DNA from: Candidatus Woesearchaeota archaeon
GTDB taxonomy: Archaea; Nanobdellota; Nanobdellia; Pacearchaeales; GW2011-AR1
DNA length: 62,713 nucleotides
Direction of reading: 5' to 3'
Assembly (NCBI GenBank): GCA_964606775.1
Contig: CAZSGW010000001.1
Span: 90,002-152,714 of the forward strand
Shown here: positions 35,310 through 62,713 of the stretch, piece after piece
Numbering within the stretch: position 1 is the first letter of the stretch
Layout of the letters: each line of letters starts with the position of its first letter
Position numbers and translations under genes: made by a program
The notes under the pieces: model-generated
Told to the model about the DNA's origin: nothing
The model's input: the letters and a program-made list of their open reading frames with translations, nothing else
Databases searched by the model: none

Positions 35310-35329
35310 GTTTCTTTTTCAAAAGAAAC
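35310..35329. repeat. 9-bp perfect inverted repeat (hairpin) in the divergent intergenic region
   Basis: GTTTCTTTT-TC-AAAAGAAAC read directly. It is preceded by two CACTGTA direct repeats (35280-35286 and 35303-35309). Confidence 0.5.
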
Positions 35330-35372
35330 CCATTTTTCTAAAAGAAAAACCCAAATAAATCTTTAGAAAATA

Positions 35373-35380
35373 TTTAAAAG
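35373..35380 (+). promoter_or_regulatory. TATA-like box upstream of the FISUMP-domain gene
   Basis: TTTAAAAG lies 22-29 nt upstream of the ATG at 35402, immediately after the 18-nt motif copy at 35353-35370. Confidence 0.35.
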
Positions 35381-35401
35381 TATAAAGGACACTCAAAGTT
35401 T

Positions 35402-36391
35402 ATGGAAATATTAACAAAATTGTCAAAACTCCCTTTAATAGGAAAAGTAGCGGGAGTGGTTGGAACAGTAGCAATTATTTCAGCTCCAATAATTTACTCA
35501 ATTACCGGAAATAAACAAGAAGCAAAAGAGAAAAAAATAGAAAGAAAAGAATGGTGGGAAGAACAATCAGAAAAATCAAAAGTAGTTTTTGGTGAAGGGT
35601 ATCTAAAAGATGGCTATTCTGTTTTTGATCCTAACCCCGAATATGAACCAAGAACAAAAGTTCAAGATGCTGTAAAAACAGGACTTTATGTTTTATCAGA
35701 CAACCTCTCTGGATCTTCTGAGATTTTAGATGGAATAGAATTAGCTATTGAAACAGAAAACAAAATAAAAGAAAATCTTGAAACCAAAGCTCAAAAAAAA
35801 CCAATTAAAAAAGAAAAAACAAAGGGAACATTTACAGACAAAAGAGATAATCAAGAATATAAATGGGTAAAAATAGGAGACCAAATTTGGATGGCTGAAA
35901 ATTTAAATTATTCAACTTCTTACGGTTCTTGGTGTTATGATAATAAAAAATCGAATTGTGAAACATACGGAAAACTTTACAATTGGAATGTAGCTCTAAA
36001 ATCTTGTCCTAAAGGATGGCATCTGCCTTCAAATGATGATTGGGAAAAACTTGGAAAATACATTAGTAAAGATAATGGAGGATATAATCAAACTAAAGGA
36101 GATTGGGAAAAAATAGGAATGCATCTTAAATCTAAAACAGGTTGGAGATTACCTTACATAAGTTCAGTAAAAGGAACTGATGATTATGGATTTTCCGCAC
36201 TAGGAGGGGGTTATCGTAGTGATGATGGAAAACTAATGAGCGGCTTAAAAATTATGGGAAATTGGTGGACTTCAAGTAAAAAAGATATAAAGAATGCTTT
36301 TTCACGTACTATATATGATGAAGGAAAATTATTCAAAGAAAGTTATCCTAAACAAGGAGGATATAGTGTCCGTTGCATAAAAAATAAATAA
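35402..36391 (+). CDS. membrane-anchored protein with a FISUMP (Fibrobacter succinogenes major paralogous) domain
   Basis: 329 aa with an N-terminal TM (GKVAGVVGTVAIISAPIIYSI). The C-terminus FTDKRDNQEYKWVKIGDQIWMAENLNY...CYDNKKSNCETYGKLYNWNVALKSCPKGWHLPSNDDWEKL...GTDDYGFSALGGGYR...WWTSS...GYSVRCIK matches the FISUMP consensus almost position by position. Confidence 0.8.
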   Translation: MEILTKLSKLPLIGKVAGVVGTVAIISAPIIYSITGNKQEAKEKKIERKEWWEEQSEKSKVVFGEGYLKDGYSVFDPNPEYEPRTKVQDAVKTGLYVLSDNLSGSSEILDGIELAIETENKIKENLETKAQKKPIKKEKTKGTFTDKRDNQEYKWVKIGDQIWMAENLNYSTSYGSWCYDNKKSNCETYGKLYNWNVALKSCPKGWHLPSNDDWEKLGKYISKDNGGYNQTKGDWEKIGMHLKSKTGWRLPYISSVKGTDDYGFSALGGGYRSDDGKLMSGLKIMGNWWTSSKKDIKNAFSRTIYDEGKLFKESYPKQGGYSVRCIKNK

Positions 36392-38572: not shown

Positions 38573-38603
38573 ATCTTCACCTCAAAAAATACAAGAAGAA
38601 ATT

Positions 38604-38623
38604 AATTAATAAAACTTTGTAAA
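38604..38623. promoter_or_regulatory. 20-nt exact repeat in the promoter region of the platform gene
   Basis: AATTAATAAAACTTTGTAAA is identical to 33339-33358. It lies 32-51 nt upstream of the ATG at 38572 (minus strand) and carries TTTTATTAA on the coding strand. Confidence 0.5.
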
Positions 38624-38729
38624 CCCTGCTAAAAAATACAAACAAAAAAATTTATTCAACAAAATATCTTATTTTTAATTCCAACCATATTTTGATTATA
38701 CAAAATGTTTTAAATTAATTCTTCTTCAA

Positions 38730-45828: not shown

Positions 45829-46461
45829 ATGATAAAACAAAAAGAGTGTGTACCATTAATAACACTTTCAATAATCTTCGCTTTCTCGATAACACTTCTA
45901 GAAAGTTCTTCATACTTTCTCTACGTGCTCGCAGGAATTTTCATCATCCTATTGCTAAACACTCTCATAAAAAAAATAACTGCATACTACCTCGAATCGG
46001 AAATTGAAATAAAAATGTGGGAATTTAAAAGATATGGATATCAAAACTCCCAAAAATTAAAAAGACCCTTTCCCGCAGGAGCATTCTTTCCATTAATCTC
46101 AAGAGTTTTATTTTTTCCGCTAAATGGATTCATCTGGATGGCATCTTTAGTATTCGACGTAAAATCAAAAACATACAAAGCCGCAAAACGCCACGGACAA
46201 TACTCTTATTCGGAAATAAACGAATCCGATATAGGATTAATCGCTGCAACAGGAATTTTTGCAAATCTATTATTAGCATTCTTATTTTACTTAGTGGGTT
46301 TTTCAGAATTTGCAAAGTTCAGCATTTGGTACGCCTTCTTTAATTTAATCCCTCTTTCAAATTTAGATGGAAACAAAATCTTTTTTGGAAGTAGCCTCTT
46401 ATGGAGTATTTTGTCTACAATAACTCTAATCGCACTTTCGTATAGTTTCTTCATAATTTAA
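45829..46461 (+). CDS. M50 (site-2 protease)-like membrane protein lacking the HExxH motif
   Basis: 210 aa. FFNLIPLSNLDGNKIF matches the NLlP..PLDG motif, and IAATGIFANLLLAF matches AGP..N. The HExxH position reads LNTLIKKITAYYL, so no metal ligands are present. Confidence 0.45.
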   Translation: MIKQKECVPLITLSIIFAFSITLLESSSYFLYVLAGIFIILLLNTLIKKITAYYLESEIEIKMWEFKRYGYQNSQKLKRPFPAGAFFPLISRVLFFPLNGFIWMASLVFDVKSKTYKAAKRHGQYSYSEINESDIGLIAATGIFANLLLAFLFYLVGFSEFAKFSIWYAFFNLIPLSNLDGNKIFFGSSLLWSILSTITLIALSYSFFII

Positions 46462-52287: not shown

Positions 52288-52323
52288 AAAGAAAAAAAAA
52301 GATGTAACTATTTAAAGATTATT
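52264..52323. repeat. 60-nt duplicated segment, copy A
   Basis: CTTTTTATTAAAATTCTCACGCATAAAG-A9-GATGTAACTATTTAAAGATTATT covers the first 8 codons of the M16 gene, the intergenic region and the last codons of 52312-52962. It is nearly identical to 53449-53507. Confidence 0.85.
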
Positions 52324-52962
52324 CTTTGCTAGTTTATTCAATTGAACTTGACTAACTATCATTGCAACAGGACCTAAAAATATCCACAATGCAAAGAGTC
52401 CTCCCTTACTAAATCCAGTCAATTCATTAATTGCAGCACTATACTTCCAAAAATAAATAAAAGGAACAACAAAATTCACCACCGGAATTAAAAATAACCA
52501 CAAGGTACTTGGTTTTGGAGCTGTTTCTGTATTATGTCTTAATTCTTTAGTTGTTTTAACTAACCAAACAATTCCATAAATCCCAAAAGTAATGATAGAT
52601 AACAACAAAACTATTCCTGCTTTTCTTTGTTTAGGAATTTTCTTTAAATTTTTATTAGAAACACTTTTTTCTTCTTTTTTCTGAAATTTTTCTTCTTTAT
52701 CTTGAACTTTTTTTGCAGGAGTTTCAGGTTTTTGTTGTTTAATTTGAGAAGTAAATTCTTCTTCAACATATTTCTTAGAAGGTTTTTTCGGGGTAGTTTT
52801 CTTTTTAGCCTCAGAAGTTTTTCCTTGTTTTAGATAATTAACAGCATCATCAACAGTCTTCTCTTTAAAACCACCTTTTAACAACTCTTGTTTAAGTCTT
52901 TGATAAGAAAAACCTCTTTTCTTTCCTTTTTGCAAATAATTTACAACTTTTTGACTAACCAT
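52312..52962 (-). CDS. membrane protein: small N-terminal helical domain, K-rich linker, DUF4234-like TM region
   Basis: 216 aa. The N-terminus VVNYLQKGKKRGFSYQRLKQELLKGGFKEKTVDDAVNYL is paralogous to 53503-54030. The C-terminal ITFGIYGIVWLVKTTKEL resembles DUF4234. Confidence 0.6.
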   Translation of the reverse strand: MVSQKVVNYLQKGKKRGFSYQRLKQELLKGGFKEKTVDDAVNYLKQGKTSEAKKKTTPKKPSKKYVEEEFTSQIKQQKPETPAKKVQDKEEKFQKKEEKSVSNKNLKKIPKQRKAGIVLLLSIITFGIYGIVWLVKTTKELRHNTETAPKPSTLWLFLIPVVNFVVPFIYFWKYSAAINELTGFSKGGLFALWIFLGPVAMIVSQVQLNKLAKNNL

Positions 52963-53334: not shown

Positions 53335-53472
53335 TTAAATAGCTTTCTGAAATAAATTATTCTGATTTATTAGAAATCTTTTTGTGCCAATCACAATTAT
53401 CTTGTTTCCTTTTTCTTTTATTTCCGCGTTTGGGCAAGCCTTCAAAATCTTTTTATTAAAATTCTCACGCAT
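53335..53472 (-). CDS. 45-aa chimeric micro-ORF starting with the duplicated M16 start (probably a remnant)
   Basis: Not in the track. MRENFNKKILKACPNAEIKEKGNKIIVIGTKRFLINQNNLFQKAI. The first 8 codons are identical to the M16 peptidase start because of the 60-nt duplication. Confidence 0.3.
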   Translation of the reverse strand: MRENFNKKILKACPNAEIKEKGNKIIVIGTKRFLINQNNLFQKAI

Positions 53473-53507
53473 AAAGAAAAAAAATATGTAACTATTTAAA
53501 GATTATT
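53449..53507. repeat. 60-nt duplicated segment, copy B
   Basis: Same sequence as 52264-52323, apart from one A fewer in the A-run and one G-to-T change. Confidence 0.85.
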
Positions 53508-54030
53508 GCATAAGTAAAAACGCAACAACTCCTCCAGCAACAACAAGTATGCCAACAAAAACCCACCAAAACCACTTAGGAACTCCTTTTGGAGGAGCCT
53601 TCTCTTCACCTTGTCCTTTCTTCATAGCTTCATTAGAAACATTTTCTTTTCTAGCCTTGATATTTTTATCAGAAGACTTTTCAACTTTTTTATTTTCAGA
53701 AACCTTCTGAGACTGAGCAGAACCTTTAGGAACAATTGGTTTAATTTGATTAGTTTGAGAATCCTTAGACTGCTTTTGAACTGCCTTCTTTGGCTTAGCC
53801 TGAGTAGTCTTCGCAACTTTCTTAACAACCTTCTTCTTAGCAGGAGTTGTAGTTTTCTGGGTAGTGGATTTTTTAACCACTTTTTTCTTAGAACTCTTCA
53901 AAAAATTAATCGCCTCGTCAACTTCTGCAGAATTAAAATTATTTTTAACAAGCTCCTGTTTCAATCGAGCATAAGTAAAACCTCTCGCCTTACCCTTCTT
54001 CAAATAATCAACAATAGATTTGTTCACCAT
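53503..54030 (-). CDS. membrane-anchored protein, paralog of 52312-52962 (N-terminal domain)
   Basis: 175 aa. IVDYLKKGKARGFTYARLKQELVKNNFNSAEVDEAINFL is followed by a K/T/Q-rich linker and a C-terminal TM (WFWWVFVGILVVAGGVVAFLL). The + strand ORF 53611-54096 is rejected as a shadow. Confidence 0.6.
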   Translation of the reverse strand: MVNKSIVDYLKKGKARGFTYARLKQELVKNNFNSAEVDEAINFLKSSKKKVVKKSTTQKTTTPAKKKVVKKVAKTTQAKPKKAVQKQSKDSQTNQIKPIVPKGSAQSQKVSENKKVEKSSDKNIKARKENVSNEAMKKGQGEEKAPPKGVPKWFWWVFVGILVVAGGVVAFLLMQ

Positions 54031-54128
54031 CTTTTAAATATAAAAGAAAAATCAATTATAAATGTTTTCATTTCAAAACACTTTATAAAATTTTAATAAA
54101 AAATAGCAAGACTCAAAAAATAAAATAA

Positions 54129-54896
54129 TCATTTCCTAAAAACAATGTACTTTTCTCCTCCAAATTCAAAATCCTCTAAAATTTCAAAATTTTCTTCAAT
54201 ATACTTAATAGCCCAACTTCTTCTAACCTTAAAATTCTCTCTCTTAAAAAAACTCTTCATCGCAAAACTAACAACAAAAATATCACACAAAGAAACAAGC
54301 TCATCTAAAAATTTTTTCGTATAATTTCTTTCTAACATCTCCAAAGAATCAATGGACTTAAACAAAAAACAAATACGGGGTTTTTTTTGCTTTTTAATCA
54401 AGCCTTTAATTTTTTCTAATTCAAATAAGCTCATCTGAACCGCCTTCGCAGAATACTTATTTTTTTCAAAGAAGTAATTACTAACATTAACAAGCTGTCC
54501 AACAGCCTCTATGCCTAAATAATTTACCTCATTCCCCAATTTTTTAAAATACTCATAAGACAATCCATTAATCCCACAACCTAAATCAATAATACTGCAT
54601 TTATCAAAACCCTTCAAAACTCTCGAATAAACTTTCTCGTAATAATCAAACCTCTCTTTTGTAGAAACATGCCTTAACAAAAACCACCGAGCATCCTTGT
54701 CCTTTGGGTTCCTTATCTTTCTTCCCATAAATGCAGTAAAAACTCTCTTCAGTAAATCCCGTGTAAACTTAACCTTCTCACTTTCATTATATTCTTCCTT
54801 ATCAAATTTTTCAAATGCCTTCTCAACATCATTCCGAGGTAATTCAGAAAACTCTGCCTTTGAAATGATCTTCTCAATTAACTCTTCTTTATTCAT
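54129..54896 (-). CDS. FmrO/ArmA/Rmt-like 16S rRNA methyltransferase homologue (class I SAM MTase)
   Basis: 255 aa. LLRHVSTKERFDYYEKVYSRVL....SIIDLGCGINGLSY parallels H.STKERl..ld.lY..if....vlDiaCGlNPL of RmtB/ArmA. FLFKSIDSLEMLERN..., VVSFAMKSF and the C-terminal GGEKYIVFRK parallel ifKllP.LE.q, aVSFPtrSl and g.El.yli.k. Confidence 0.6.
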   Translation of the reverse strand: MNKEELIEKIISKAEFSELPRNDVEKAFEKFDKEEYNESEKVKFTRDLLKRVFTAFMGRKIRNPKDKDARWFLLRHVSTKERFDYYEKVYSRVLKGFDKCSIIDLGCGINGLSYEYFKKLGNEVNYLGIEAVGQLVNVSNYFFEKNKYSAKAVQMSLFELEKIKGLIKKQKKPRICFLFKSIDSLEMLERNYTKKFLDELVSLCDIFVVSFAMKSFFKRENFKVRRSWAIKYIEENFEILEDFEFGGEKYIVFRK

Positions 54897-54930
54897 AAAA
54901 CTTTTAAGCCAAATACCCTTATAAATTTAC

Positions 54931-55857
54931 ATGCCAATAAACATAAACGACCCAGAATACACTAAAGCCGAAAAAGAATTTTACGAAGCCTCAAGTCCCG
55001 AAGAACAACTGATTGCATTAAACAAAATGATTTCTCATATGCCCTCACATAAGGGTGCGGAAAATTTAAGACAACAACTGCGAACAAGAAGAAAAAAATT
55101 AGAATCCCAAATTGAAAAAAAGAAAAAATCTGGAAAATCTTCCAAAATTGGAATAAGAAAAGAAGACATGCAAGCTGTAATAATTGGAAAAACAAATTCA
55201 GGAAAATCCTCTTTACTAAATCTTCTAACAAATGCGGAACCAAAAATATCCGAAACACATTTCAGAACAAAGGAACCTCAAATTGGAATAATGAATTTTG
55301 CAAACACAAATATTCAGTTAATAGAAATCCCAGCAATAGAATCAGAATACTACGAAAAAAGTATAGTTCACACTGCGGACACTGTTTTAATTTTAATAAC
55401 AAAATTGGAAGAAATATCTGAAATAGAAAAAATGCTAAACGCAAGAGGGAAAAAAATAATTCTCTTCAATAAAACAGACAAACTTTCAGAAAATGAAAAG
55501 AGAAAAATATCTGCAACACTTAAATCCAAATATAAAAAATATGATTTTGTCTTAATTTCTACAAAAACAGAAGAAAATATTGAAGAACTAAAAAACAAAA
55601 TATTCCAAAGCTTTGGAAAATTAAGAGTATATACAAAAGAACCTGGAAAAACAATTGAAGAAGCAAAAAGAAGAAAACCAATAATTCTAAATCCAAATTC
55701 AACAATAAAAGATGTTGCAGAAAAAATACTAAAAGGATTTTCAGAAAAAATAAAAGAAACAAAAATAACTGGCCCAAGTTCAAAATTTCCAAATCAAAAA
55801 GTAGGGCTAAAACATAAGGTAAAGGATTTAGATATTGTTGAATTCAAAACAATATAA
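54931..55857 (+). CDS. DRG/Obg-like GTPase with a C-terminal TGS domain
   Basis: 308 aa. G1 is IIGKTNSGKSSLLNLLT and G4-like is LFNKTD. The TGS-like C-terminus is LRVYTKEPGK...PIILNPNSTIKDVAEKI...KVGLKHKVKDLDIVEF. Confidence 0.7.
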   Translation: MPININDPEYTKAEKEFYEASSPEEQLIALNKMISHMPSHKGAENLRQQLRTRRKKLESQIEKKKKSGKSSKIGIRKEDMQAVIIGKTNSGKSSLLNLLTNAEPKISETHFRTKEPQIGIMNFANTNIQLIEIPAIESEYYEKSIVHTADTVLILITKLEEISEIEKMLNARGKKIILFNKTDKLSENEKRKISATLKSKYKKYDFVLISTKTEENIEELKNKIFQSFGKLRVYTKEPGKTIEEAKRRKPIILNPNSTIKDVAEKILKGFSEKIKETKITGPSSKFPNQKVGLKHKVKDLDIVEFKTI

Positions 55858-55864
55858 AAAACAA

Positions 55865-57577
55865 TTATTTCTTTTTAGAAGACTTCTTCCTATATTTCTT
55901 ACTGCCTTTCTTTTTTATTAAAACTAATTTTTTACCTAGAGGGTTTTTCAAAAGATTTATTTTTGATTTTTTTTTATTTTTCTTTTCATTCTTTCTCTTC
56001 TTATAAAGAATAAACCAAATTAGGAAAATAATCAATAAAATCACAATCACAAAAATGATTATAATTCTCCTTTTAATTTTCACGTCAAAAATTGCACTTC
56101 CAATAGCCTTCTTACCGTCATAAGAAACATCCACTTCAAAAATATATTTTTCTGGACAAGTAGTTTCTGGAAGATTAAATTCTTTAAGAAAAATAACTTT
56201 TGTATCAATCGCAATCATCTCCGAATCCTGCAATAAAACGTCTCCATCAAAATTCTTAATATAATAATCAATAACAAAATCTGTCTTATCCAAGTCTCCC
56301 ATTTCAATTATTGTAATTTGTGCAAAAACCTCTTCACCGGGATAAACTACCTGAAATTGAGAAGGTATTTCTACTTTAACATCAAATAAAGCTTCTTTGG
56401 GATTTACCTCTATCACTACAGGAATCTCAACTTTCTGAGAAGAAGACTCAACAAAAATTTTCCCCAAATATAAATCAGATTGAACATTCTCCAAAGCAAA
56501 AACATCTAATAAAACCAATTTAGTCTCTCTTGCACCCAATGTAAATTCTTCTTCCTTGACCCTAATAAAATCTTGTAGATTACTTGAAACACTTATTTCA
56601 ATTTCTGAATCCTGTAAACTTGAAACAGAAAAAAATTCACTTGTAACTCCTCCCTGTTTAAGACTAACCTTCATTTCATCAATACTCACTGAAAATCCCT
56701 GTTGGACAACAGGTGTAGCACCACCTCCACCGCCCCCTCCTCCTCCAGGGGTCTTTGGCTTAGGAGTAGTTGGAGTTTCTCTAACAGTATAAACCCCTCC
56801 CAACCTTGTAACACTAAAAACAAAAACACCTGAAGAATAACTTATCTCCGCACAATCAGAGCAAACACTTCCATCTACCAAAACCTGAGGATTACTAAAA
56901 CTTAAACCTCTAATATAAAGGGTAGCGTTTTTCTCAAAATTAGGTAACTGCGTTTCATTAACAAAAATTCTATTGTCTGAAATATTAATTCCAGAATCCA
57001 AGTCCAAAATATAATCAAAAGAGTCCTCGTCTGAAACCAAATTAACGGTATCGTTCATCACAATTTTCCCATGAGAGGTGTGTTCCAATGTAACATCAGA
57101 AACTGCTCCTGTGTCTTCATAAGGAATTTTAACGAAATCTGTAGAGTCTCCTCTAGTGGACCCGTTAAATTCAGAATAATAAATAGTCAATAAACTCAAA
57201 TTAGAGGTAAAATAAACACTCTCCTTTGAAATAGAACCCGAATTATTTGCATATAAATTTAACAAATGCTGTCCCTCCGTAACATTAAAACTAGAATTTC
57301 CACTAATACTTACATTGGCTCCATTATCCAGATTATACCAAAAATCACTTGCAGAACTTGTAAAATTTAAAGGTAAACTTTCATTATACAAATAAGTTTT
57401 GTTCTCGGGTAAAATAAGATTCAAAACAGGTGGTGCTCCCGTCAAGGTTATCCCTATAGATAAATTATATGATGTAACTTTTCCAGTAAGTGCAACGTCT
57501 CCAGTCAAATCAATTGCCGAGATAAAACAAATAGAAAATAAAACTAAAAATAAAACAAAGACTCCTCTCTTTCCCAT
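55865..57577 (-). CDS. surface protein: signal peptide, sequon-rich beta domains, poly-Gly linker, TM, polybasic tail
   Basis: 570 aa. The N-terminus is MGKRGVFVLFLVLFSICFISA, and many N-x-S/T sequons follow. Other elements are TPKPKTPGGGGGGGGGATP, the TM IIIIFVIVILLIIFLIWFILY and a K-rich tail. Confidence 0.7.
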   Translation of the reverse strand: MGKRGVFVLFLVLFSICFISAIDLTGDVALTGKVTSYNLSIGITLTGAPPVLNLILPENKTYLYNESLPLNFTSSASDFWYNLDNGANVSISGNSSFNVTEGQHLLNLYANNSGSISKESVYFTSNLSLLTIYYSEFNGSTRGDSTDFVKIPYEDTGAVSDVTLEHTSHGKIVMNDTVNLVSDEDSFDYILDLDSGINISDNRIFVNETQLPNFEKNATLYIRGLSFSNPQVLVDGSVCSDCAEISYSSGVFVFSVTRLGGVYTVRETPTTPKPKTPGGGGGGGGGATPVVQQGFSVSIDEMKVSLKQGGVTSEFFSVSSLQDSEIEISVSSNLQDFIRVKEEEFTLGARETKLVLLDVFALENVQSDLYLGKIFVESSSQKVEIPVVIEVNPKEALFDVKVEIPSQFQVVYPGEEVFAQITIIEMGDLDKTDFVIDYYIKNFDGDVLLQDSEMIAIDTKVIFLKEFNLPETTCPEKYIFEVDVSYDGKKAIGSAIFDVKIKRRIIIIFVIVILLIIFLIWFILYKKRKNEKKNKKKSKINLLKNPLGKKLVLIKKKGSKKYRKKSSKKK

Positions 57578-57622
57578 GATAAATAAATCAAAAGATTATA
57601 TTTAAACCTTTTTTAATAGAAA

Positions 57623-58186
57623 TTATTTCTTCTTTTTCTTAGAAGAAGTTTTCTTTTTACATTTAGAACAATTCGTCATTTCCTTCCTTACATAAACTAT
57701 AATCGCAATTAAAAGAATCAAAACTACAATACCTATCAAAACACTAGAGGTCTCATCCGAAATAGCTTTCCCCTTGGTAACCGTTAAAGCAATTTTCTTA
57801 TTCAATCCAGGAGCAATCTTAACATTATCTCCCTCTCCAGAAGAAGTCTGTTCTAATCTAATCACAACACTATAATTTCCTGATTCAGTTTTCCTTGGAA
57901 TATCAAAAACAATTGGAACTTCAACATCCTCAACTCCAAAAGGAACATCATAACTATTTTCAACAAGAGATGCAAATTCTTCCCCAGAAGTAATCTCCAA
58001 ATTAAAAACAACATCTTTTGGTTCCCCCGCCATATTCTGCAACACACAAGAAGTTGTTACCGACTCTCCTGCAGGAATCTCTATTGGGTTGTCATCACTA
58101 TAATCACAACTAATCCCAGATGCACTAATTAAAGCCCCAGCTAAAATAAAACATGCAAAAATTAAACTTAATTTTTTATATTCCAT
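57623..58186 (-). CDS. small surface protein with a C-terminal TM and polybasic tail
   Basis: The track start at 58210 overlaps the upstream gene. The ATG at 58184-58186 (MEYKKLSLIFACFILAGALISASG) overlaps the upstream TAA (TAATG). The C-terminus has LIGIVVLILLIAIIVYV and then ...CSKCKKKTSSKKKKK. Confidence 0.65.
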   Translation of the reverse strand: MEYKKLSLIFACFILAGALISASGISCDYSDDNPIEIPAGESVTTSCVLQNMAGEPKDVVFNLEITSGEEFASLVENSYDVPFGVEDVEVPIVFDIPRKTESGNYSVVIRLEQTSSGEGDNVKIAPGLNKKIALTVTKGKAISDETSSVLIGIVVLILLIAIIVYVRKEMTNCSKCKKKTSSKKKKK

Positions 58187-59094
58187 TATGAATATACCTC
58201 CACTGTCCAACTTCCATGAGTCGATGTTGAATATGACTGTGATGTCAAATCTGCATTCATCGCCTCTAAATAAAAGTACAATTGCTCTTGTCCAGTACTT
58301 CCATCATTAACTGAGTGATTACCTCTATTTAAAGTTGCGCTTGTAACAGTAACTGCAGTATTATTTGATAATAAATCTCCATCCGAAGCATCATTAACAT
58401 TAGTAGATAAATTCTCAGAGTAAATTACCTTAGAACTATCACTATTACCTACTAAGTCCAATGCAGTAACATTAACAGACAAACTCTCATCATTTCCAGT
58501 GTTATTCAAAGTAATTGGATCGTTACCTGCACCAACATCAACATCAGTAACACTTAAACCTGTCCAGTTCAATGCATTAGGATCCATAACAAATGCAGTC
58601 AATTCATTCAAAGAAAAGGTATTTGAAGAATTAGTATCACTCGCACCATTTAAATCAGAAATAGTTCCATTAATAGTCCAAGTCCCATCATCATCAAAAT
58701 ACCACATATCTATGGTACACGAATAATTAGCAGCCCATGCATTCAAATCCGCAACATGAGTACAACTCAAATTATATCTTGTCGTCTCCCCTGATTTATT
58801 AAATTGACCTCTTGCACTAGAATCATCTAAATTCGCAACTCCGTCTGAATCATTAGCAGCAAAATAAAAAGTAATAGCTTTAGAATTATCTTCTGTAACA
58901 GACTGGGAAGATAAAGATGAAACCCAATAAATAACGGGAGCTGTATTTCCTATCGTAACTTGAGCAGCAGTACTTTGAGATGTTGCCTTTCCAGTTCCTG
59001 TCAACCAATCAAATAAACCTGCAGAAACCACTGAAATAGAAACTAAAACTAACGCAAAAACAAAAACCAAAATTAAATTCTTTCTTTTCATCAT
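58186..59094 (-). CDS. secreted protein paralogous to the membrane-proximal ectodomain of the giant protein
   Basis: 302 aa with a signal peptide (MMKRKNLILVFVFALVLVSISVVSAG). It is collinear with residues ...NTAPQISVSS...STSTHGSW of 59148-62713 (shared GETTRYN.SC, ANYSCTI.MWYFD, NELTAFVM, LNNTGND, SGQEQLYF.LE..NADLTSQSYSTSTHGSW). Confidence 0.75.
   Translation of the reverse strand: MMKRKNLILVFVFALVLVSISVVSAGLFDWLTGTGKATSQSTAAQVTIGNTAPVIYWVSSLSSQSVTEDNSKAITFYFAANDSDGVANLDDSSARGQFNKSGETTRYNLSCTHVADLNAWAANYSCTIDMWYFDDDGTWTINGTISDLNGASDTNSSNTFSLNELTAFVMDPNALNWTGLSVTDVDVGAGNDPITLNNTGNDESLSVNVTALDLVGNSDSSKVIYSENLSTNVNDASDGDLLSNNTAVTVTSATLNRGNHSVNDGSTGQEQLYFYLEAMNADLTSQSYSTSTHGSWTVEVYS
58206..58259. 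repeat. 54-nt near-identical repeat (copy in the 302-aa paralog)
   Basis: TCCAACTTCCATGAGTCGATGTTGAATATGACTGTGATGTCAAATCTGCATTCA, read directly. Confidence 0.85.
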
Positions 59095-59147
59095 AACCTC
59101 TTTAGTAAAATTTCTAAATATTTTTACTATTTAAATATTTCTCTTAT

Positions 59148-59700
59148 TTAATTATTCAGTTTTCTTAATGCTCTTGCATGTAATGTCCAAATATTTCGAG
59201 GGTCTTTATTCAAAACTCTCGCTATCTCTGAATTCTTCATCTTCCTCTTCCTTAATTCATAAACTAATGATTCCATAATACTCAAATTACGATTAGAAAA
59301 AATGTCTGCCGAAACAAACAGATTATCTTTCTTTGATTTAATCTTAATCTTATCTTTCTCAATAGCATTTCTATAATTGGTTGAAATTGTCCTAGGATCC
59401 CTATTAATTAGTTTAGAAATTTCTGAAAATCTCATTTTCTTGTTTTCTTTAAGATATTTAGTTAAAGCTTCTGAAGGCCCTAGTTTTCCTTGGAAAATTG
59501 AAACAGGAACAGCTTCTTCTATTCCTTCTTCTTGTTTTTGTTCTTTTGGTAATTCGATTAATTTGTTAATTAAGTCTCCTACAAGTCCTTCTGCTTTAAG
59601 TTCTTTAGCTAGCTTATCTAATTCTTTTAAAGTATATTTTTTCTTTTTCTTTCTTCTCCTCGCAGGAACAACAACTGCAAGCATAATCGAAATTATCCAA
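59148..59700 (-). other. TM-like segment, polybasic stop-transfer and two HTH units
   Basis: HGSWIISIMLAVVVPA-RRRKKKKK comes first. Then VPVSIFQGKLGPSEALTKYLKENKKMRFSEISKLINRDPRTISTNYRNAIEK and VSADIFSNRNLSIMESLVYELRKRKMKNSEIARVLNKDPRNIWTLHARALRKL follow. These are two copies of one unit resembling sigma-70 region 4/LuxR-type HTH. Confidence 0.6.
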
Positions 59701-62700
59701 CTTCCGTGAGTCGATGTTGAATATGACTGTGATGTTAAATCCGCATTCACAAACTCTAAACAAAAATATAATTGCTCTTGTCCCGAAGTCTCGTTTCCAT
59801 AATTCAAAGAGTTATTCCCATTAGATAAAATTGCTGAACTAATGCTTATCTGAGAAGCATTAACTAATGAATCCCCCCCACATACATTAGAAACACTAAC
59901 TGAAAAATTCTCAGCATAAATTATCTTTGAATTATCAGATTCTCCAACCAAATCATAACCTGTAACATTTACATCTCCGACCGCAACACCATCATTTCCA
60001 GTATTGTTCAAAAGAAGAGGATTATTGTCCGCAAGAATATTTGAATCAGAAGCACTAATGTCTGTCCAGTTTAATGAAGAGGAAGACATTACAAATGCTG
60101 TTAATTCATTATACTGAAAACTAGTAGAATCATTAACTGAAACAGCCTCTGAATTATCTTTAGCATAAACAATTACATTCCAATCTCCGGCTCCGTCAAA
60201 ATACCACATCCCAATTGTACAAGAGTAATTTGCAGTAGTAGAATCCAAATCTCCAACTAAAACACAAGATGAATTATAACGAGTAGTTTCCCCTGTCCGA
60301 GAGAATGATGCATTAATTGAAGAATCATTTATATCTCCAACACCCTCGGCATCAGAAACATTTACAAAAAATTCAACACTTGTTGTAGAACTTTCTGTAG
60401 GATTTATATTTGGAATTGAAGAAACACTTATTTGAGGAGCTGTATTTGCTTCCCCTAAAATTGTAAGATTATTACTCGTTTCAGTCGTTCCAGCTTCAGT
60501 TGAAGAGAAAGGAGTAACTTCACAAGTCCAATTTTCACCTGCATTTGTTTCATCTGAAACTATTAAATCTGTTCTGTTATTGTATATTGCCTTTATTTGT
60601 TGTGGTGATAAGGAGTGGTTATAGATTCTCAAGTCATCAATGGTTCCATTAAAAGGTCCAAAAGCGCTGTTATAAGAAAAATTCAAACCTACAAAAAGTT
60701 GAGGCATAGGAAATCTATCGTCAACTAAAGTAGTGCTGTTTGAAACTAATTGTCCATCAAAATAAAGTTCATGAAAATTATCATTCCACCTGCCTATTGC
60801 TGCAACATGGTGCCAGTTCAGATCAGCAGGATATCCATCAACAGTAGTGTAAGACATTTGAGCATCAGCATCATTAAAAGATTCAAATCTCCAGTCTATA
60901 CTTGAACTGTCAAGTGCAATATAGAAATATTTAGAAGAATCATCGCCACCGTCAATTAAAGTTCCGCCATTACCTGTAAGGCTATCTGCTTTGTACCATA
61001 AAGTGATCGTAAAGTTTGTTTGTGTTGGAATAACATCACTTGATAAATTGATGTATTCAGAATTACTTTTATCAAATTTGAATGCGCCATATCCATCATG
61101 ACCGCCTGATTTATTCCAATTCCCTCCGCCATTTGTTGCATCATTATTGTTGCCGGAGTAATCTAATAATGCGTTTGTAGAGTTGCCTTCCATTGGCATA
61201 TATAAAACCATGTCAGGTGTTCCGTTTTTATACCATGAAACTGCTGCAGTTGTTGCACTTCCATTTAGATCATATTGACAAGTTAAATTATCACTAGTTA
61301 AATTATTTGTTGATGTTGCATTCAAAAATAAAGTCTCTAAATCCGGATCAGGAGTTAAAAGTCTCATATACCCCCAACTATCAGGTCTATTATACGCACT
61401 TCCTGTAAACCAATGTCCAGAATTATCGGCATTTCCACCATCATCATCATCATTAAAGTAAGTATAGAACCCCAAGATATCCTCATAATTAACAGTATAA
61501 TCTAAATCACTCCAAGGAATTGCAAACTCTAAAATATAATAATTATCAGTGTCTCCATTATCATTTAAAGTCCCTGAATAAGTTGAATCTCTTTCACCTG
61601 TAAAATTCCAAGTATAATTGTAAGCTGATTGAGATCCTCCAATCTGCCCATTTCCATCATAGGTAGCATTTCCAACAGAATAGATTATTTGATAATCATC
61701 TGGATACATCATCATTGTTTTATTATTCAAAATATCAAAAAACACTTGGACATTATCATCCTTATTTGCAGAAGTATCAATCGTTCCAGGAGAAGCTGAA
61801 TCATTCCACAATTCTGCATCTGTTGCATTAACTGCAACATAAACATAATCATTATCATACATTAAATAAACAGTTGCAGTATTGTCATCCCCACTATAAG
61901 TCACATTATTTGCAGAAGTCCATTCACTCAAATCAGCATCGATGGTTGCAGAACCATAAGTTACATTAATTATGTCCTTTCTTTCCAAAGTATAATTCAA
62001 AGAATCACTTGAATAATATTGTCCATCATAAGCTGTAGCCTGACAAGTCCAATTATCTTGATAAGTTAAATTTCCAACCAAAACAGAAGAAACTAAACTT
62101 AAAGTATTGTTATCAATCAATCCAGATTGACCAGATAAAAATTCAACTGAATTATTATACCAAGTATAGTTAACATAAACCTGTGAAGCATTACTCGAAG
62201 TAACATTTGCATAACAGTTAAAATCCCCTTCATTATCAGAATAAATTTTCACATCCGTTACATTCAAAAGAAGAGTAGTAAAATTCCCACTCTGATTAAC
62301 TTCCAATCCAGTTGTATCATTCGCATAAATTGTATAATTCACTTCACCAACTGGAAATGTTTCATTAGTTCCAAAAGTTATACTCCAAAGATTTCCAGAA
62401 ATCAATTGTAAAAACCCTTGGAAAATCACATTAGAAACTCCAACCAATCCCTCCCAAACTTTCACCCAAACAGAATCAATATCATCATCAACATCTGTAA
62501 TTGTTGCATTTATCGTCACATTATCTCCAACCTGAACAACTCCATCTTCAGTGCCAGATTCGTTTATGTCGATTACTTCTGTTATGTTTGGAGAATCAAA
62601 TTCAATATCCAAAACATTCGAAATTTCAGTTATTCCAGCCTCAGCAGAGTTAAATGGGGTAACTTCACAAGTCCAGTTTTCACCTACATTTGTTTCTTCT

Positions 62701-62713
62701 GAAACTATCAAGT
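59148..62713 (-). CDS. giant surface glycoprotein-like protein (N-terminus outside the window) with LamG and CBM9-like domains, one TM-like segment and a cytoplasmic double-HTH tail
   Basis: The frame is open from the window edge (at least 1188 codons). Domain evidence is given in separate entries and in the findings. Confidence 0.8.
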   Translation of the reverse strand, partial: LIVSEETNVGENWTCEVTPFNSAEAGITEISNVLDIEFDSPNITEVIDINESGTEDGVVQVGDNVTINATITDVDDDIDSVWVKVWEGLVGVSNVIFQGFLQLISGNLWSITFGTNETFPVGEVNYTIYANDTTGLEVNQSGNFTTLLLNVTDVKIYSDNEGDFNCYANVTSSNASQVYVNYTWYNNSVEFLSGQSGLIDNNTLSLVSSVLVGNLTYQDNWTCQATAYDGQYYSSDSLNYTLERKDIINVTYGSATIDADLSEWTSANNVTYSGDDNTATVYLMYDNDYVYVAVNATDAELWNDSASPGTIDTSANKDDNVQVFFDILNNKTMMMYPDDYQIIYSVGNATYDGNGQIGGSQSAYNYTWNFTGERDSTYSGTLNDNGDTDNYYILEFAIPWSDLDYTVNYEDILGFYTYFNDDDDGGNADNSGHWFTGSAYNRPDSWGYMRLLTPDPDLETLFLNATSTNNLTSDNLTCQYDLNGSATTAAVSWYKNGTPDMVLYMPMEGNSTNALLDYSGNNNDATNGGGNWNKSGGHDGYGAFKFDKSNSEYINLSSDVIPTQTNFTITLWYKADSLTGNGGTLIDGGDDSSKYFYIALDSSSIDWRFESFNDADAQMSYTTVDGYPADLNWHHVAAIGRWNDNFHELYFDGQLVSNSTTLVDDRFPMPQLFVGLNFSYNSAFGPFNGTIDDLRIYNHSLSPQQIKAIYNNRTDLIVSDETNAGENWTCEVTPFSSTEAGTTETSNNLTILGEANTAPQISVSSIPNINPTESSTTSVEFFVNVSDAEGVGDINDSSINASFSRTGETTRYNSSCVLVGDLDSTTANYSCTIGMWYFDGAGDWNVIVYAKDNSEAVSVNDSTSFQYNELTAFVMSSSSLNWTDISASDSNILADNNPLLLNNTGNDGVAVGDVNVTGYDLVGESDNSKIIYAENFSVSVSNVCGGDSLVNASQISISSAILSNGNNSLNYGNETSGQEQLYFCLEFVNADLTSQSYSTSTHGSWIISIMLAVVVPARRRKKKKKYTLKELDKLAKELKAEGLVGDLINKLIELPKEQKQEEGIEEAVPVSIFQGKLGPSEALTKYLKENKKMRFSEISKLINRDPRTISTNYRNAIEKDKIKIKSKKDNLFVSADIFSNRNLSIMESLVYELRKRKMKNSEIARVLNKDPRNIWTLHARALRKLNN
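59696..59749. repeat. 54-nt near-identical repeat (copy in the giant gene)
   Basis: TCCAACTTCCGTGAGTCGATGTTGAATATGACTGTGATGTTAAATCCGCATTCA differs from 58206-58259 at 3 positions. Weaker similarity continues for several hundred nt. Confidence 0.85.
60481..60570. repeat. internal ~90-nt repeat of the giant gene (post-LamG motif)
   Basis: It encodes LIVSDETNAGENWTCEVTPFSSTEAGTTETS. Its partner at 62625-62713 encodes (M)IVSEETNVGENWTCEVTPFNSAEAGITEIS. By eye, about four fifths of the nucleotides are identical. Confidence 0.8.
60575..61210 (-). other. LamG (concanavalin A-like lectin, LamG_3-type) domain
   Basis: LYMPMEGNSTNALLDYSGNNNDAT...FTITLWYKA...WHHVAAI...LYFDGQLV...GTIDDLRIYNHSLSPQQIKAIYNNR has the classic LamG_3 start and the DD.RIYN..LS..EI end signature. 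Confidence 0.75.
61355..61960 (-). other. CBM9/DOMON-like sugar-binding beta-sandwich (tentative)
   Basis: GSATIDADLSEWTSANNVTYSGDDNTATVYLMYDNDYVYVAVNATDAELWND ... RPDSWGYMRLL resembles the carbohydrate-binding family 9-like pattern (idG.l.E.W... v.l.yD...LYva..v.D ... P..wG.l.l). Confidence 0.45.

What the first reader, a model, noticed from the sequence alone, without database searches (positions are those of the whole stretch)
59148..62713. Giant LamG/CBM9-like surface protein continues through one hydrophobic segment into a cytoplasmic double-HTH tail (candidate membrane-tethered transcription factor)
Seen in sequence:
- One uninterrupted minus-strand frame runs from the window edge to 59148.
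- The first ~1000 aa look extracellular. They contain a LamG_3 signature (IDDLRIYNHSLSPQQIKAIY), a CBM9-like module and beta-rich repeats. N-x-S/T sequons are extremely dense (for example NVTINATITD, NETFPVGEVNYTIYANDTTGLEVNQSGNFTTLLLNVTD).
- The ectodomain ends in HGSWIISIMLAVVVPA, immediately followed by RRRKKKKK, a positive-inside stop-transfer.
- About 165 further residues carry two copies of a unit (VPVSIF..LGPSEALTKYLKENKKMRFSEISKLINRDPRTISTNYRNAIEK and VSADIF...LSIMESLVYELRKRKMKNSEIARVLNKDPRNIWTLHARALRKL) that reads like sigma-70 region 4/LuxR-type HTH.
- There is no ATG between the K-run and the first conserved HTH unit, so the tail is unlikely to be a separate gene.

Inference: a glycan- or host-surface-binding ectodomain is physically coupled to DNA binding. 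This resembles ToxR/CadC but with inverted topology, or a factor released by proteolysis. In an episymbiont-like archaeon this could be a contact-sensing switch. I do not know of a described LamG-TM-HTH architecture in archaea.
Basis: partly seen in the sequence, partly recalled or inferred. Interest (0 to 1): 0.8.

Follow-up and report, generated by a model that had tools for sequence, protein, structure and literature searches.

The report
Giant surface protein with DNA-binding tail
A giant sugar-coated surface protein of a tiny DPANN archaeon ends in a short membrane anchor and a cytoplasmic pair of DNA-binding helix-turn-helix domains; this one-piece design recurs in dozens of related archaea and appears undescribed, and it could link what the cell touches outside to its DNA inside.

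Summary
ORF 59148-62711 (-) is open to the window edge. It encodes a CBM9-like module, a LamG domain, an Ig-like membrane-proximal module, a 13-residue hydrophobic stretch, RRRKKKKK and two sigma-70-region-4-like HTH units.

The fusion is not an assembly artefact:
- A second assembly (Logan, SRR15425353) is 100% identical across the junction.
- The same architecture occurs in Woesearchaeota and Pacearchaeota genomes (1884 aa and over 2057 aa).
- About 55 fetched family members show it, some up to 5919 aa.

Full-length relatives add a conserved cytoplasmic N-domain and a strong first transmembrane helix. The protein is therefore most likely two-pass, with both ends inside the cell. Topology is supported by:
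- N-glycosylation sequons at 2.1 times expectation in ectodomains but not in tails;
- pI 4.05 for the ectodomain against 9.8 for the tail;
- free 164-210 aa homologues that lack signal peptides.

The hydrophobic segment itself is weak and short by hydropathy.

Best reading: a DPANN-specific transmembrane one-component regulator, a new variant of membrane-tethered transcription factors. It is not a sigma factor, although public annotation says so. DNA binding, targets and any proteolytic release remain untested. I found no paper describing it.

The parts
59148..62711 (-). C-terminal 1187 codons of the giant fusion ORF. The N-terminus lies beyond the window edge.
   Evidence: The frame is open from the window edge to the stop. 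L010 is 100% identical to window 53455-60384.
61650..61964 (-). CBM9-like carbohydrate-binding module (residues 250-354)
   Evidence: phmmer hit to 1i82_A, the CBM9-2 module of T. maritima Xyn10A, E 3.7e-6.
60591..61067 (-). LamG / concanavalin-A-like lectin domain (residues 549-707)
   Evidence: Pfam Laminin_G_3, E 2.3e-21, 77 bits against a cut-off of 27.6.
59685..60495 (-). Membrane-proximal module (residues 739-1009). An Ig-like beta sandwich is followed by a second beta-rich part. It ends with YSTSTHGSW-IISI.
   Evidence: 49% identical to the downstream 302-aa secreted protein, E 2e-73. The first domain is a confident Ig-like sandwich in AF2, and Foldseek finds Siglec-like and S-layer Ig hits. 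The motif is conserved in relatives.
59661..59699 (-). Short hydrophobic segment WIISIMLAVVVPA (residues 1005-1017), the candidate second membrane span
   Evidence: Hydropathy is weak. The junction pattern is conserved in about 55 relatives, with a median of 14 residues from the Trp to the basic cluster.
59682..59684 (-). In-frame ATG inside the hydrophobic segment, a possible but unconserved internal start
   Evidence: Sequence. L006 and L007 have no Met at this place.
59637..59660 (-). Polybasic stop-transfer cluster RRRKKKKK (residues 1018-1025)
   Evidence: Conserved in all fused relatives.
59514..59636 (-). Helical linker (residues 1026-1066), shared with free-standing family members
   Evidence: AF2 predicts helices H19-31 and H37-51 at moderate confidence. 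See also alignment A2.
59355..59513 (-). HTH unit 1 (residues 1067-1119): short strand VPVSIF followed by three helices
   Evidence: AF2 pLDDT 95-98. Sub-threshold HTH_38 hit. P60 and F64 are invariant in the family alignment.
59154..59318 (-). HTH unit 2 (residues 1132-1186), sigma-70-region-4-like
   Evidence: Sigma70_r4_2 at 25.3-25.6 bits against a cut-off of 25.7. AF2 pLDDT 93-98. 38% identical to unit 1.
58186..59094 (-). Downstream gene: a 302-aa secreted paralogue of the membrane-proximal module, without anchor or tail
   Evidence: A gene in the same position is present in L001, L006, L007 and L009.
57623..58186 (-). Downstream gene: 187-aa secreted protein with a C-terminal transmembrane anchor and a Lys-rich tail. 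Its ATG overlaps the upstream stop (TAATG).
   Evidence: Homologues sit in the same position in L007 and L009, and partly in L001.
55865..57577 (-). Downstream gene: 570-aa sequon-rich surface protein with a strong C-terminal anchor and a Lys-rich tail

Best explanation
The ORF encodes the C-terminal part of a giant, heavily N-glycosylated surface protein of a DPANN archaeon (Pacearchaeota/Woesearchaeota-like).

**Architecture**
- The visible ectodomain carries a CBM9-like module, a LamG domain and an Ig-like membrane-proximal module.
- It is followed by a short apolar stop-transfer segment, a polybasic cluster, a helical linker and a tandem pair of sigma-70-region-4/LuxR/Tfx-type helix-turn-helix units in the cytoplasm.
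- Full-length relatives begin with a conserved cytoplasmic helical domain of about 95 aa and a strong signal-anchor helix. The whole protein is therefore two-pass, N-in and C-in.

**Proposed mechanism (inferred)**
- The HTH pair is a single-chain pseudo-dimer that binds DNA at the membrane.
- It acts as a transmembrane one-component regulator, most plausibly of the surface-protein gene cluster it sits in.
- The state of the ectodomain (ligand or host-surface binding, folding, shedding) would be coupled to DNA binding either directly or after proteolytic release.

**Shown:** reality and conservation of the fusion, the HTH fold, and the topology signals.

**Inferred:** that the short segment spans the membrane, that the tail binds DNA, that the effect is transcriptional, and what the signal is.
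For: **The fusion is real**
- Logan contig L010 is 100% identical over 6930 nt, including the junction.
- The same in-frame architecture occurs in L006 (Woesearchaeota, complete 1884 aa), L007 (Pacearchaeota, over 2057 aa) and L009.
- P0031, P0032, P0033, P0034, P0041, P0042, P0049, P0051 and P0058 cover module, anchor and tail together.
- The exhaustive profile search found 2249 representative proteins at E<=1e-3. Of the best 150, 32 are longer than 600 aa (up to 5919 aa) and carry the HTH units at the C-terminal end.

**Topology**
- Strong N-terminal transmembrane helices (19-residue Kyte-Doolittle mean 2.4-3.2) follow a Lys/Arg-rich N-domain in 17 full-length relatives.
- Across 34 fused proteins, sequons run at 4.17 per 100 aa in ectodomains (observed/expected 2.10). 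Tails have 0.56 per 100 aa (0.79) and N-domains 0.51 per 100 aa (1.01).
- In the window, the ectodomain has pI 4.05 and the tail pI 9.8.
- Free-standing homologues have no signal peptide.

**HTH**
- The AF2 tail model has mean pLDDT 82, with both units above 93.
- Local Foldseek matches: the RcsB HTH at 0.8 Å over 44 aa, SigR region 4 at 0.8 Å over 42 aa, and archaeal regulator 8hno_B at 0.7 Å over 44 aa with 39% identity.
- 17 of 18 family members hit PF08281, best E 2.8e-9.

**Link to surface-protein loci**
- A conserved downstream gene order of secreted or anchored proteins is seen in the window, L001, L006, L007 and L009.
- Free-standing family genes sit next to sequon-rich secreted proteins in L002/L003 and overlap the start of a 3950-aa protein in L004/L005.
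Against: - The hydrophobic segment is short and weak: 13 residues here and a median of 14 in relatives. The 19-residue Kyte-Doolittle mean is 1.3-1.8 and the simple Hessa sum is about +5 kcal/mol. Its first five residues belong to the last beta strand of the ectodomain module.
- AF2 gave no confident helix there. No dedicated transmembrane predictor could be run.
- The window's own tail is 0.1-0.4 bit below the Pfam cut-off.
- Whole-model Foldseek E-values are not significant (best 0.047).
- Sequence matches to solved structures are weak, E 0.03-0.1.
- No DNA target was found. The one candidate repeat, in L008, is not enriched in the window.
- The only S2P-like gene in the window lacks HExxH, so nothing here supports proteolytic release.
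- The near-invariant recognition helices across the family are unusual for regulators with diverse operators. They could point to a common non-specific or protein target.
Confidence: 0.6

Rival explanations
1. The cytoplasmic tail is a DNA tether rather than a transcription factor. The polybasic stretch and the 2-4 HTH units would hold the chromosome, or incoming or outgoing DNA, at the membrane under the surface complex. Possible purposes are nucleoid anchoring, co-translational insertion of the products of this gene cluster near their genes, or DNA exchange at a host contact site.
For: - The recognition helices are near-invariant across a family of 2249 representatives, which fits a common or non-specific target.
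- Unit number varies between 2 and 4.
- The tail has pI 9.8.
- No specific operator motif was found.
Against: - Free cytoplasmic homologues of 164-210 aa exist in large numbers. That fits diffusible regulators better than tethers.
- Sigma-region-4, LuxR and Tfx-type HTH domains are sequence-specific regulators in all characterised cases (established knowledge).
Confidence: 0.17
2. The ORF is continuous, but the working HTH protein is made separately. Translation would start at the in-frame ATG at 59682-59684 and give a free 178-aa regulator like the stand-alone family members. The full-length fusion would be a by-product of a lost stop codon.
For: - There is an in-frame ATG inside the hydrophobic stretch.
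- The resulting 178-aa product would have the size and Lys-rich N-terminus of free homologues.
- The paralogous module ends about where the ATG lies.
Against: - L006 and L007 have no Met between the module and the first HTH unit, and Met does not recur at this position in the other fused relatives.
- The junction (apolar stretch plus polybasic cluster) is conserved in about 55 relatives, which implies selection on the fused form.
- No Shine-Dalgarno-like sequence stands out upstream of the ATG.
Confidence: 0.08
3. The hydrophobic stretch does not span the membrane. The basic HTH tail would be exported with the rest of the protein and would bind extracellular DNA or anionic host-surface polymers.
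For: - Hydropathy is weak and the segment is short.
- AF2 models WIISI as a beta strand and the rest as coil.
Against: - Sequons are enriched 2.1-fold in ectodomains but are at or below expectation in tails.
- The charge bias fits the positive-inside rule.
- Free homologues lack signal peptides.
- The polybasic cluster immediately after the apolar stretch is invariant.
Confidence: 0.05
4. A frameshift or assembly error in the A-rich K-run has joined a C-terminally anchored surface protein gene to a separate HTH gene.
For: - A-rich homopolymers lie at 59637-59660.
- A shift of +1 or -1 would end the surface protein a few codons after the K-run, as in the neighbouring anchored proteins.
Against: - A second assembly has the identical sequence.
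- No start codon lies between the K-run and the HTH units.
- The same fusion is found in many independent assemblies, including contigs of 333-648 kb.
Confidence: 0.02

Closest known systems
Transmembrane transcription regulators (TTRs): ToxR, TcpP and CadC in bacteria; ArnR and ArnR1 in Sulfolobus (class defined in Demey et al. 2023, PMC10269533; Sulfolobus examples in PMC6396743)
   Same: One polypeptide combines a DNA-binding HTH domain in the cytoplasm, a membrane span and an extracytoplasmic domain. The class is known to occur in archaea.
   Different: - The DNA-binding part is C-terminal and is a tandem (x2 or x4) sigma-region-4-like HTH, not an N-terminal OmpR-type winged helix.
- The protein is two-pass, with a second cytoplasmic domain at the N-terminus.
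- The outside part is a giant (1000-5800 aa) glycosylated adhesin-like array, not a small sensor domain.
- The span next to the HTH is unusually short.
- The words DPANN, Woesearchaeota and Nanoarchaeota do not occur in the main text of the Demey et al. census.
ECF sigma / anti-sigma pairs and regulated intramembrane proteolysis (RseA-RseP, RsiV)
   Same: - The HTH is of sigma-70 region 4 type.
- Full-length relatives have the anti-sigma topology: a cytoplasmic N-domain, a transmembrane helix and an extracytoplasmic sensor.
- JGI annotates members as 'sigma24 family protein'. Castelle et al. 2021 (PMC8204110) reported 'sigma-70' genes in Woesearchaeota with no anti-sigma factor.
   Different: - There is no sigma region 2. 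Both units are region-4-like, and TIGR02937 scores 29.8 bits against a cut-off of 42.9.
- Archaea have no bacterial core RNA polymerase for a sigma factor to bind (established knowledge).
- Binder and sensor are one chain.
- No active site-2 protease was seen in the window.
Archaeal Tfx / EnfR-type regulators (TIGR00721, NF053597; structures 8hno and 8hnp)
   Same: Closest archaeal relatives of a single unit:
- Foldseek gives 0.7 Å over 44 aa with 39% identity to 8hno_B.
- The profile hit to 8hnp_A has E 0.08.
- There are sub-threshold NCBIfam hits.
   Different: - Those proteins are soluble, with one N-terminal HTH and a C-terminal domain.
- Here two units sit in tandem, preceded by a short strand ('VPVSIF'), and they occur both free and fused to surface proteins.
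- Scores are far below the family cut-offs.
Eukaryotic membrane-tethered transcription factors (Notch, SREBP, ATF6, plant NAC/NTL)
   Same: In both, a large extracytoplasmic or luminal part and a DNA-binding part are joined through a membrane span. For Notch, the analogy is ligand or contact sensing by a giant repeat ectodomain.
   Different: There is no homology. Release by proteolysis is obligatory in eukaryotes because of the nucleus; here it is optional and untested.
Giant surface proteins of DPANN archaea (for example SPEARE proteins of Nanohaloarchaeota; LamG-rich proteins reported in DPANN genome papers such as PMC10266531 and PMC7443923)
   Same: Very large, LamG- or Ig-rich, glycosylated proteins thought to mediate host attachment.
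   Different: In the papers I searched, none is described with a C-terminal cytoplasmic HTH pair.

Membership tests
Transmembrane transcription regulators (operational definition of Demey et al. 2023: a DNA-binding domain plus at least one predicted transmembrane region) | A recognised DNA-binding domain in the polypeptide | tested here: met
   - AF2 predicts two three-helix HTH units with pLDDT above 93.
- Local superpositions on the RcsB HTH, SigR region 4 and 8hno are 0.7-0.8 Å.
- 17 of 18 family members hit PF08281.
- The window's own score is 25.3-25.6 bits against a cut-off of 25.7.
Transmembrane transcription regulators | At least one membrane-spanning segment | tested here: inconclusive
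   - The window segment is 13 residues and weak by hydropathy.
- Indirect support comes from sequon and charge asymmetry and from the conserved junction.
- Strong N-terminal transmembrane helices are present in full-length relatives, but that part is off the window.
- No DeepTMHMM or TOPCONS was available.
Transmembrane transcription regulators | Binds DNA and regulates transcription while at the membrane | not testable with these tools
   Needs EMSA, DAP-seq or ChIP, plus expression data.
ToxR/CadC-type regulators | N-terminal OmpR-type winged-helix domain, single span, C-terminal periplasmic sensor | tested here: not met
   - There is no Trans_reg_C hit.
- The HTH is C-terminal and of sigma-region-4 type.
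- Relatives are two-pass.
Sigma-70 / ECF sigma factors | Region 2 (binding of the -10 element and of core polymerase) together with region 4 | tested here: not met
   - There is no Sigma70_r2 hit.
- TIGR02937 scores 29.8 bits against a cut-off of 42.9.
- Both units resemble region 4 and are 38% identical to each other.
Sigma-70 region 4 type HTH (PF08281 Sigma70_r4_2) as a domain | Score at or above the Pfam gathering threshold | tested here: inconclusive
   - The window scores 25.3-25.6 bits against 25.7.
- At E<=0.01, 17 of 18 relatives match, best E 2.8e-9.
- The precomputed Pfam column lists PF08281 for most homologues.
LuxR/GerE family HTH (PF00196) | Profile match | tested here: not met
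   E 0.18 and 11.9 bits against a cut-off of 23.5. Only the fold is similar, to RcsB.
Tfx / EnfR archaeal regulators | Family profile match (TIGR00721, NF053597) | tested here: not met
   14.2 bits against a cut-off of 60.25, and 18.8 bits against 260.
LamG / concanavalin-A-like lectin domain proteins | Laminin_G_3 profile match | tested here: met
   E 2.3e-21 and 77 bits against a cut-off of 27.6, covering profile positions 2-151 of 151.
CBM9 carbohydrate-binding modules | Sequence similarity to a characterised CBM9 | tested here: met
   Match to 1i82_A with E 3.7e-6 over 105 residues. There was no Pfam CBM9 hit at E<=1, and sugar binding was not tested.
Substrates of regulated intramembrane proteolysis | A cognate intramembrane protease and a cleavable span | tested here: inconclusive
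   - The window's M50-like protein (45829-46461) is below the Pfam cut-off and lacks HExxH.
- Pro occurs in the span in 16 of about 55 relatives.
- The rest of the genome was not available.
C-terminal sorting signals (PGF-CTERM and other archaeosortase targets, LPXTG) | Signature motif, transmembrane helix and basic cluster at the extreme C-terminus | tested here: not met
   About 160-380 further residues follow the basic cluster. There is no PGF, PEF or LPXTG motif before the apolar stretch.

The most novel reading that the evidence does not exclude
The protein is a self-contained contact sensor of an episymbiotic archaeon.
- The conserved cytoplasmic N-domain would act like an anti-sigma domain that masks the C-terminal sigma-4-like HTH pair of the same chain.
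- Engagement, tension on, or shedding of the giant lectin-like ectodomain at the host surface would unmask or release the pair.
- The freed pair would then switch on the adjacent surface-protein cluster.

This would be a Notch-like one-protein pathway from cell contact to DNA in archaea. It would also explain the 'sigma factors without anti-sigma factors' reported in DPANN genomes.
Probability: 0.15. Interest if true: 0.85.

Novelty: new variant of a known kind. Interest (0 to 1): 0.68.

Why it matters
DPANN archaea are tiny, mostly uncultured and thought to live attached to hosts. How they sense attachment and control their large, variable surface proteins is unknown.

- This family joins an adhesin-like ectodomain of up to 5800 aa to a DNA-binding module in one chain. 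It is common in Pacearchaeota and Woesearchaeota, with 2249 representative clusters for the HTH module and dozens of fused forms.
- It offers a concrete, testable candidate for outside-to-DNA signalling in these organisms.
- It corrects a misleading public annotation ('sigma24 family protein', 'sigma-70' in DPANN). These are not sigma factors but tandem region-4-like HTH modules, often membrane-tethered.
- It extends the known range of membrane-tethered regulators to a two-pass design with a C-terminal DNA-binding domain and a giant ectodomain.

Tried and rejected
1. **Two-gene or lost-stop idea.** The first homology search with the tail alone returned only free proteins of 164-210 aa. Together with the in-frame ATG and the paralogue ending at ...WTVEVYS*, this made a two-gene explanation attractive. 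I dropped it after the genome scan and the longer query found conserved fusions.
2. **Best free hit P0001.** It turned out to be cut by the contig edge, with the frame open upstream, so it is uninformative.
3. **The search for related loci with the 18-sequence alignment.** This failed because there was no conserved stretch. A 9-sequence alignment worked.
4. **AF2 of module + anchor + tail.** With an 11-row alignment it gave low confidence for residues 128-320 of the model and says nothing on the membrane span.
5. **Whole-model Foldseek E-values for the tail.** They are not significant; only the local superpositions are informative.
6. **Operator search.** The repeat ACACATTCWTAGTAAA occurs twice upstream of the free gene in L008. 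It is absent from the other loci and not enriched in the window: 4 matches at up to 3 mismatches against 1.5 expected, a count reached by 7 of 100 shuffles.
7. **The N-terminal cytoplasmic domain of relatives.** It matches no Pfam or NCBIfam family.
8. **The M50-like gene as a candidate releasing protease.** It lacks HExxH.
9. **Literature.** Five searches found the general TTR class and the DPANN 'sigma-70' remark, but no description of this architecture. Absence from the held library is not proof of absence.

Full report
**1. Observation**

On the minus strand one frame is open from the window edge (62711) to a TAA at 59148-59150, a total of 1187 codons. The N-terminus lies beyond the window.

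- Pfam finds a Laminin_G_3 domain at residues 549-707, E 2.3e-21.
- Residues 250-354 match the CBM9-2 module of Thermotoga maritima xylanase 10A (1i82_A), E 3.7e-6. The CBM9-like call is therefore supported by sequence, although Pfam gave no CBM9 hit.
- The first 34 residues (LIVSEETNVGENWTCEVTPF...) recur at 713-746 directly after the LamG domain. This suggests a further LamG repeat upstream of the window.
- The 1004-residue ectodomain carries 56 N-x-S/T sequons against 22.9 expected from its composition. The 162-residue tail carries one.
- The ectodomain has pI 4.05 (137 Asp+Glu, 25 Lys+Arg). The tail has pI 9.8.
- After ...YSTSTHGSW come IISIMLAVVVPA, RRRKKKKK, about 40 helical residues and two units that are 38% identical to each other over 53 residues, E 3e-9.

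Two details need correcting.

- There is an in-frame ATG inside the apolar stretch at 59682-59684, although there is none between the K-run and the first unit.
- The apolar stretch is only 13 residues. Its best 19-residue Kyte-Doolittle mean is 1.34 and a simple Hessa-scale sum is about +5 kcal/mol. The C-terminal anchors of the next two genes score 3.3-3.8 and -5 to -9.

**2. Is the fusion real?**

My first search with the tail alone returned 30 proteins, all 164-210 aa, starting with Met and a Lys-rich stretch. The gene just downstream (58186-59094, 302 aa) is a secreted paralogue of giant residues 739-1009: 49% identity, E 2e-73. It ends ...STHGSWTVEVYS*, which is where the giant continues WIISIMLAVVV. 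With the in-frame ATG, this made a lost stop codon or a two-gene artefact plausible. Later evidence removed that reading.

- A Logan assembly of run SRR15425353 (L010, 6930 nt) is 100% identical to window 53455-60384, including the junction and K-run.
- A scan of one genome per species found the same in-frame architecture in a Woesearchaeota MAG (L006, complete ORF of 1884 aa), in Pacearchaeota RIFOXYC1_FULL_38_15 (L007, over 2057 aa) and in a second Pacearchaeota MAG (L009, with its second unit frameshifted). It also found one free-standing gene, in L008.
- A query spanning module, anchor and tail recovered P0031, P0032, P0033, P0034, P0041, P0042, P0049, P0051, P0058 and others that cover all three parts.
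- An exhaustive profile search of 1.84 billion representatives found 2249 proteins at E<=1e-3 and 1220 at E<=1e-30. Among the best 150, 32 are longer than 600 aa (up to 5919 aa) and carry the HTH units at the C-terminal end. Some lie on contigs of 333-648 kb.
- L006 and L007 have no Met between the module and the first HTH unit, and Met does not recur at this position in the other relatives. An internal start is therefore not the conserved solution.

**3. Anatomy of the family**

Full-length relatives share one plan:

- a conserved, Lys/Arg-rich helical N-domain of about 90-110 aa, matching no known family;
- a strong transmembrane helix (19-residue Kyte-Doolittle mean 2.4-3.2);
- an ectodomain of 1000-5800 aa built from varied LamG, Ig-like, beta-helix and other modules;
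- a conserved membrane-proximal module ending Y-S-T-x(3-5)-W-x-I-x-I;
- a short apolar stretch, with a median of 14 residues from the Trp to the basic cluster and 10 strictly uncharged residues. A minority have 24-35 residues;
- at least five Arg/Lys;
- linker helices;
- two or four HTH units.

AlphaFold2 models the first half of the membrane-proximal module as an Ig-like sandwich. Foldseek matches it to Siglec-like adhesin domains and an S-layer Ig domain.

**4. Topology**

Hydropathy alone cannot settle whether the short stretch spans the membrane. The AlphaFold2 model of this region is of low confidence: WIISI is a strand and the rest is coil. Indirect evidence is consistent and comes from many sequences.

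- In 34 fused proteins, sequons occur at 4.17 per 100 aa in ectodomains, 2.10 times the composition expectation. Tails have 0.56 per 100 aa (0.79 times) and N-domains 0.51 per 100 aa (1.01 times).
- The charge asymmetry follows the positive-inside rule.
- The polybasic cluster directly after the apolar stretch is invariant.
- Free family members have no signal peptide.
- With an N-in signal anchor, a second span is needed to return the tail to the cytoplasm.

I take N-in / ectodomain-out / C-in as the most likely topology, at about 0.8. A weak second span could be stabilised by packing against the first; that is inference.

**5. The tail**

- AlphaFold2 with an 18-row alignment gives mean pLDDT 82. 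Both units score above 93. Each is a short strand (VPVSIF / VSADIF), a turn of helix and three helices.
- Whole-model Foldseek E-values are not significant, the best being 0.047.
- Local superpositions are close: RcsB LuxR-type HTH at 0.8 Å over 44 aa, SigR region 4 at 0.8 Å over 42 aa, sigma-E region 4 on -35 DNA, and archaeal regulator 8hno_B at 0.7 Å over 44 aa with 39% identity.
- Pfam Sigma70_r4_2 scores 25.3-25.6 bits for the window tail against a cut-off of 25.7. It matches 17 of 18 family members, best E 2.8e-9.
- There is no sigma region 2. TIGR02937 and the Tfx and EnfR models are far below their cut-offs.

The module is therefore a tandem region-4/LuxR/Tfx-type HTH, a single-chain pseudo-dimer. 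It is not a sigma factor. The recognition helices are strikingly conserved across the family...NRDxRTIWxxYxxAxKK in unit 1 and ...NKDxRNIWTxYxRAxKK in unit 2.

**6. Context**

The window comes from an archaeon.

- It encodes RadA, ribosomal protein S3Ae, a GINS subunit and aIF2-alpha.
- GC content is 31.5%.
- The nearest relatives of the locus are Pacearchaeota, Woesearchaeota and 'Nanoarchaeota' MAGs.

Downstream of the giant gene lie three more surface-protein genes:

- the 302-aa paralogue;
- a 187-aa protein with a C-terminal anchor, whose ATG overlaps the upstream stop;
- a 570-aa anchored protein.

The first two positions are conserved in L001, L006, L007 and L009.

Free family genes sit beside sequon-rich secreted proteins in L002/L003. 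In L004/L005 the free gene overlaps the start of a 3950-aa protein. Only one copy of the HTH family is present in the 62.7-kb window.

**7. Mechanism**

- **Best-supported reading (0.6).** This is a transmembrane one-component regulator. The ectodomain reports on the outside, through glycan or host-surface binding, folding or shedding. The cytoplasmic HTH pair binds DNA at the membrane, or after release, most plausibly at the surface-protein cluster itself.
- **Main rival (about 0.17).** The tail is a non-transcriptional DNA tether. The near-invariant recognition helices and the variable unit number favour this.
- **Separate translation from the internal ATG (about 0.08).**
- **An exported tail (about 0.05).**
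- **An assembly artefact (about 0.02).**

Nothing in the window supports proteolytic release. The only M50-like gene (45829-46461) is below the Pfam threshold and lacks HExxH, although it keeps the NxxPxxxLDG motif. I found no operator motif.

**8. Comparison with what is known**

- Transmembrane transcription regulators are a recognised class in bacteria and archaea (Demey et al. 2023, PMC10269533; Sulfolobus ArnR and ArnR1, PMC6396743). The words DPANN, Woesearchaeota and Nanoarchaeota do not occur in the main text of that census.
- Castelle et al. 2021 (PMC8204110) reported 'sigma-70' families in Woesearchaeota with no anti-sigma factors and an unclear mechanism. The present family, which JGI names 'sigma24 family protein' even for a 1704-aa member, probably accounts for at least part of that observation.
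- Five literature searches found no description of the fusion. That is not proof of novelty.

I rate the finding a new variant of a known kind. It works like a membrane-tethered transcription factor. It differs in having a C-terminal tandem region-4-like DNA-binding module, a two-pass topology with a second cytoplasmic domain, a giant adhesin-like ectodomain and an unusually short second span.

**9. Verdict**

Function remains to be shown. Interest is 0.68. The family is large, conserved, mis-annotated and sits at the surface-to-DNA interface of organisms whose host sensing is unknown. The most novel reading not excluded is an intramolecular anti-sigma-like contact sensor (probability about 0.15).

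Noticed in passing
window 58186-59094 (-), 57623-58186 (-), 55865-57577 (-): Three surface-protein genes follow the giant gene. The first is a 302-aa secreted paralogue of its membrane-proximal module (49% identity). The other two have strong C-terminal anchors and Lys-rich tails. The first two positions are conserved in L001, L006, L007 and L009, so this looks like a conserved surface-complex operon.
   Followed up: partly
window 45829-46461 (+): A 210-aa membrane protein resembles site-2 protease (Peptidase_M50, 25.7 bits against a cut-off of 27.2). It keeps NxxPxxxLDG but lacks the HExxH zinc site. It may be an inactive pseudo-protease or a divergent one.
   Followed up: partly
window 52312-52962 (-) and 53503-54030 (-): Two neighbouring paralogous small proteins share an N-terminal motif (V.YL.KGK.RGF.Y.RLKQEL.K), a long Lys-rich linker and C-terminal membrane segments. 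The first hits DUF4234. Function is unknown.
   Followed up: no
window 28701-41018: - A type IV pilus-like set is present: an A24 prepilin peptidase (29980-30792) and a T2SSE-family ATPase (38730-41018).
- It is flanked by secreted proteins with a Mucin2_WxxW domain (28701-29945) and a Fib_succ_major domain (35402-36391). Both domains are unusual in an archaeon.
   Followed up: no
L008 4174-4189 and 4275-4290: The direct repeat ACACATTCWTAGTAAA occurs twice, about 100 nt apart, just upstream of a free-standing HTH-family gene (4331-4909). It is a possible operator, but it is absent from the other loci and not enriched in the window.
   Followed up: partly
L009 3400-3900: In this Pacearchaeota relative the second HTH unit lies in a different frame from the first, next to a long poly-A/K run. 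This may be an assembly indel or a decaying copy.
   Followed up: no
P0036, P0120, P0121, P0124, P0126, P0130, P0135, P0138, P0140-P0142 and others: Many family members carry four HTH units, with the pair duplicated in tandem. Many fragments of 300-360 aa show two profile stretches. Unit number is therefore variable within the family.
   Followed up: partly
P0121, P0191, P0208 (public records): Fused proteins are publicly named 'DNA-directed RNA polymerase specialized sigma24 family protein' (1704 aa), 'LamG-like jellyroll fold domain-containing protein' and 'sialate O-acetylesterase'. None of these names reflects the architecture.
   Followed up: yes
window 62610-62711 and 60474-60575 (-): Residues 1-34 of the visible ORF repeat at 713-746 directly after the LamG domain. 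The missing N-terminal part therefore probably contains at least one more LamG repeat.
   Followed up: no
L006 777-1150; P0120, P0124, P0191 and others, N-termini: Full-length relatives share a conserved cytoplasmic N-terminal helical domain of about 95 aa (..IS..EY...L.GKT..EWI.YYD.Y..) before the first transmembrane helix. It matches no Pfam or NCBIfam family.
   Followed up: partly
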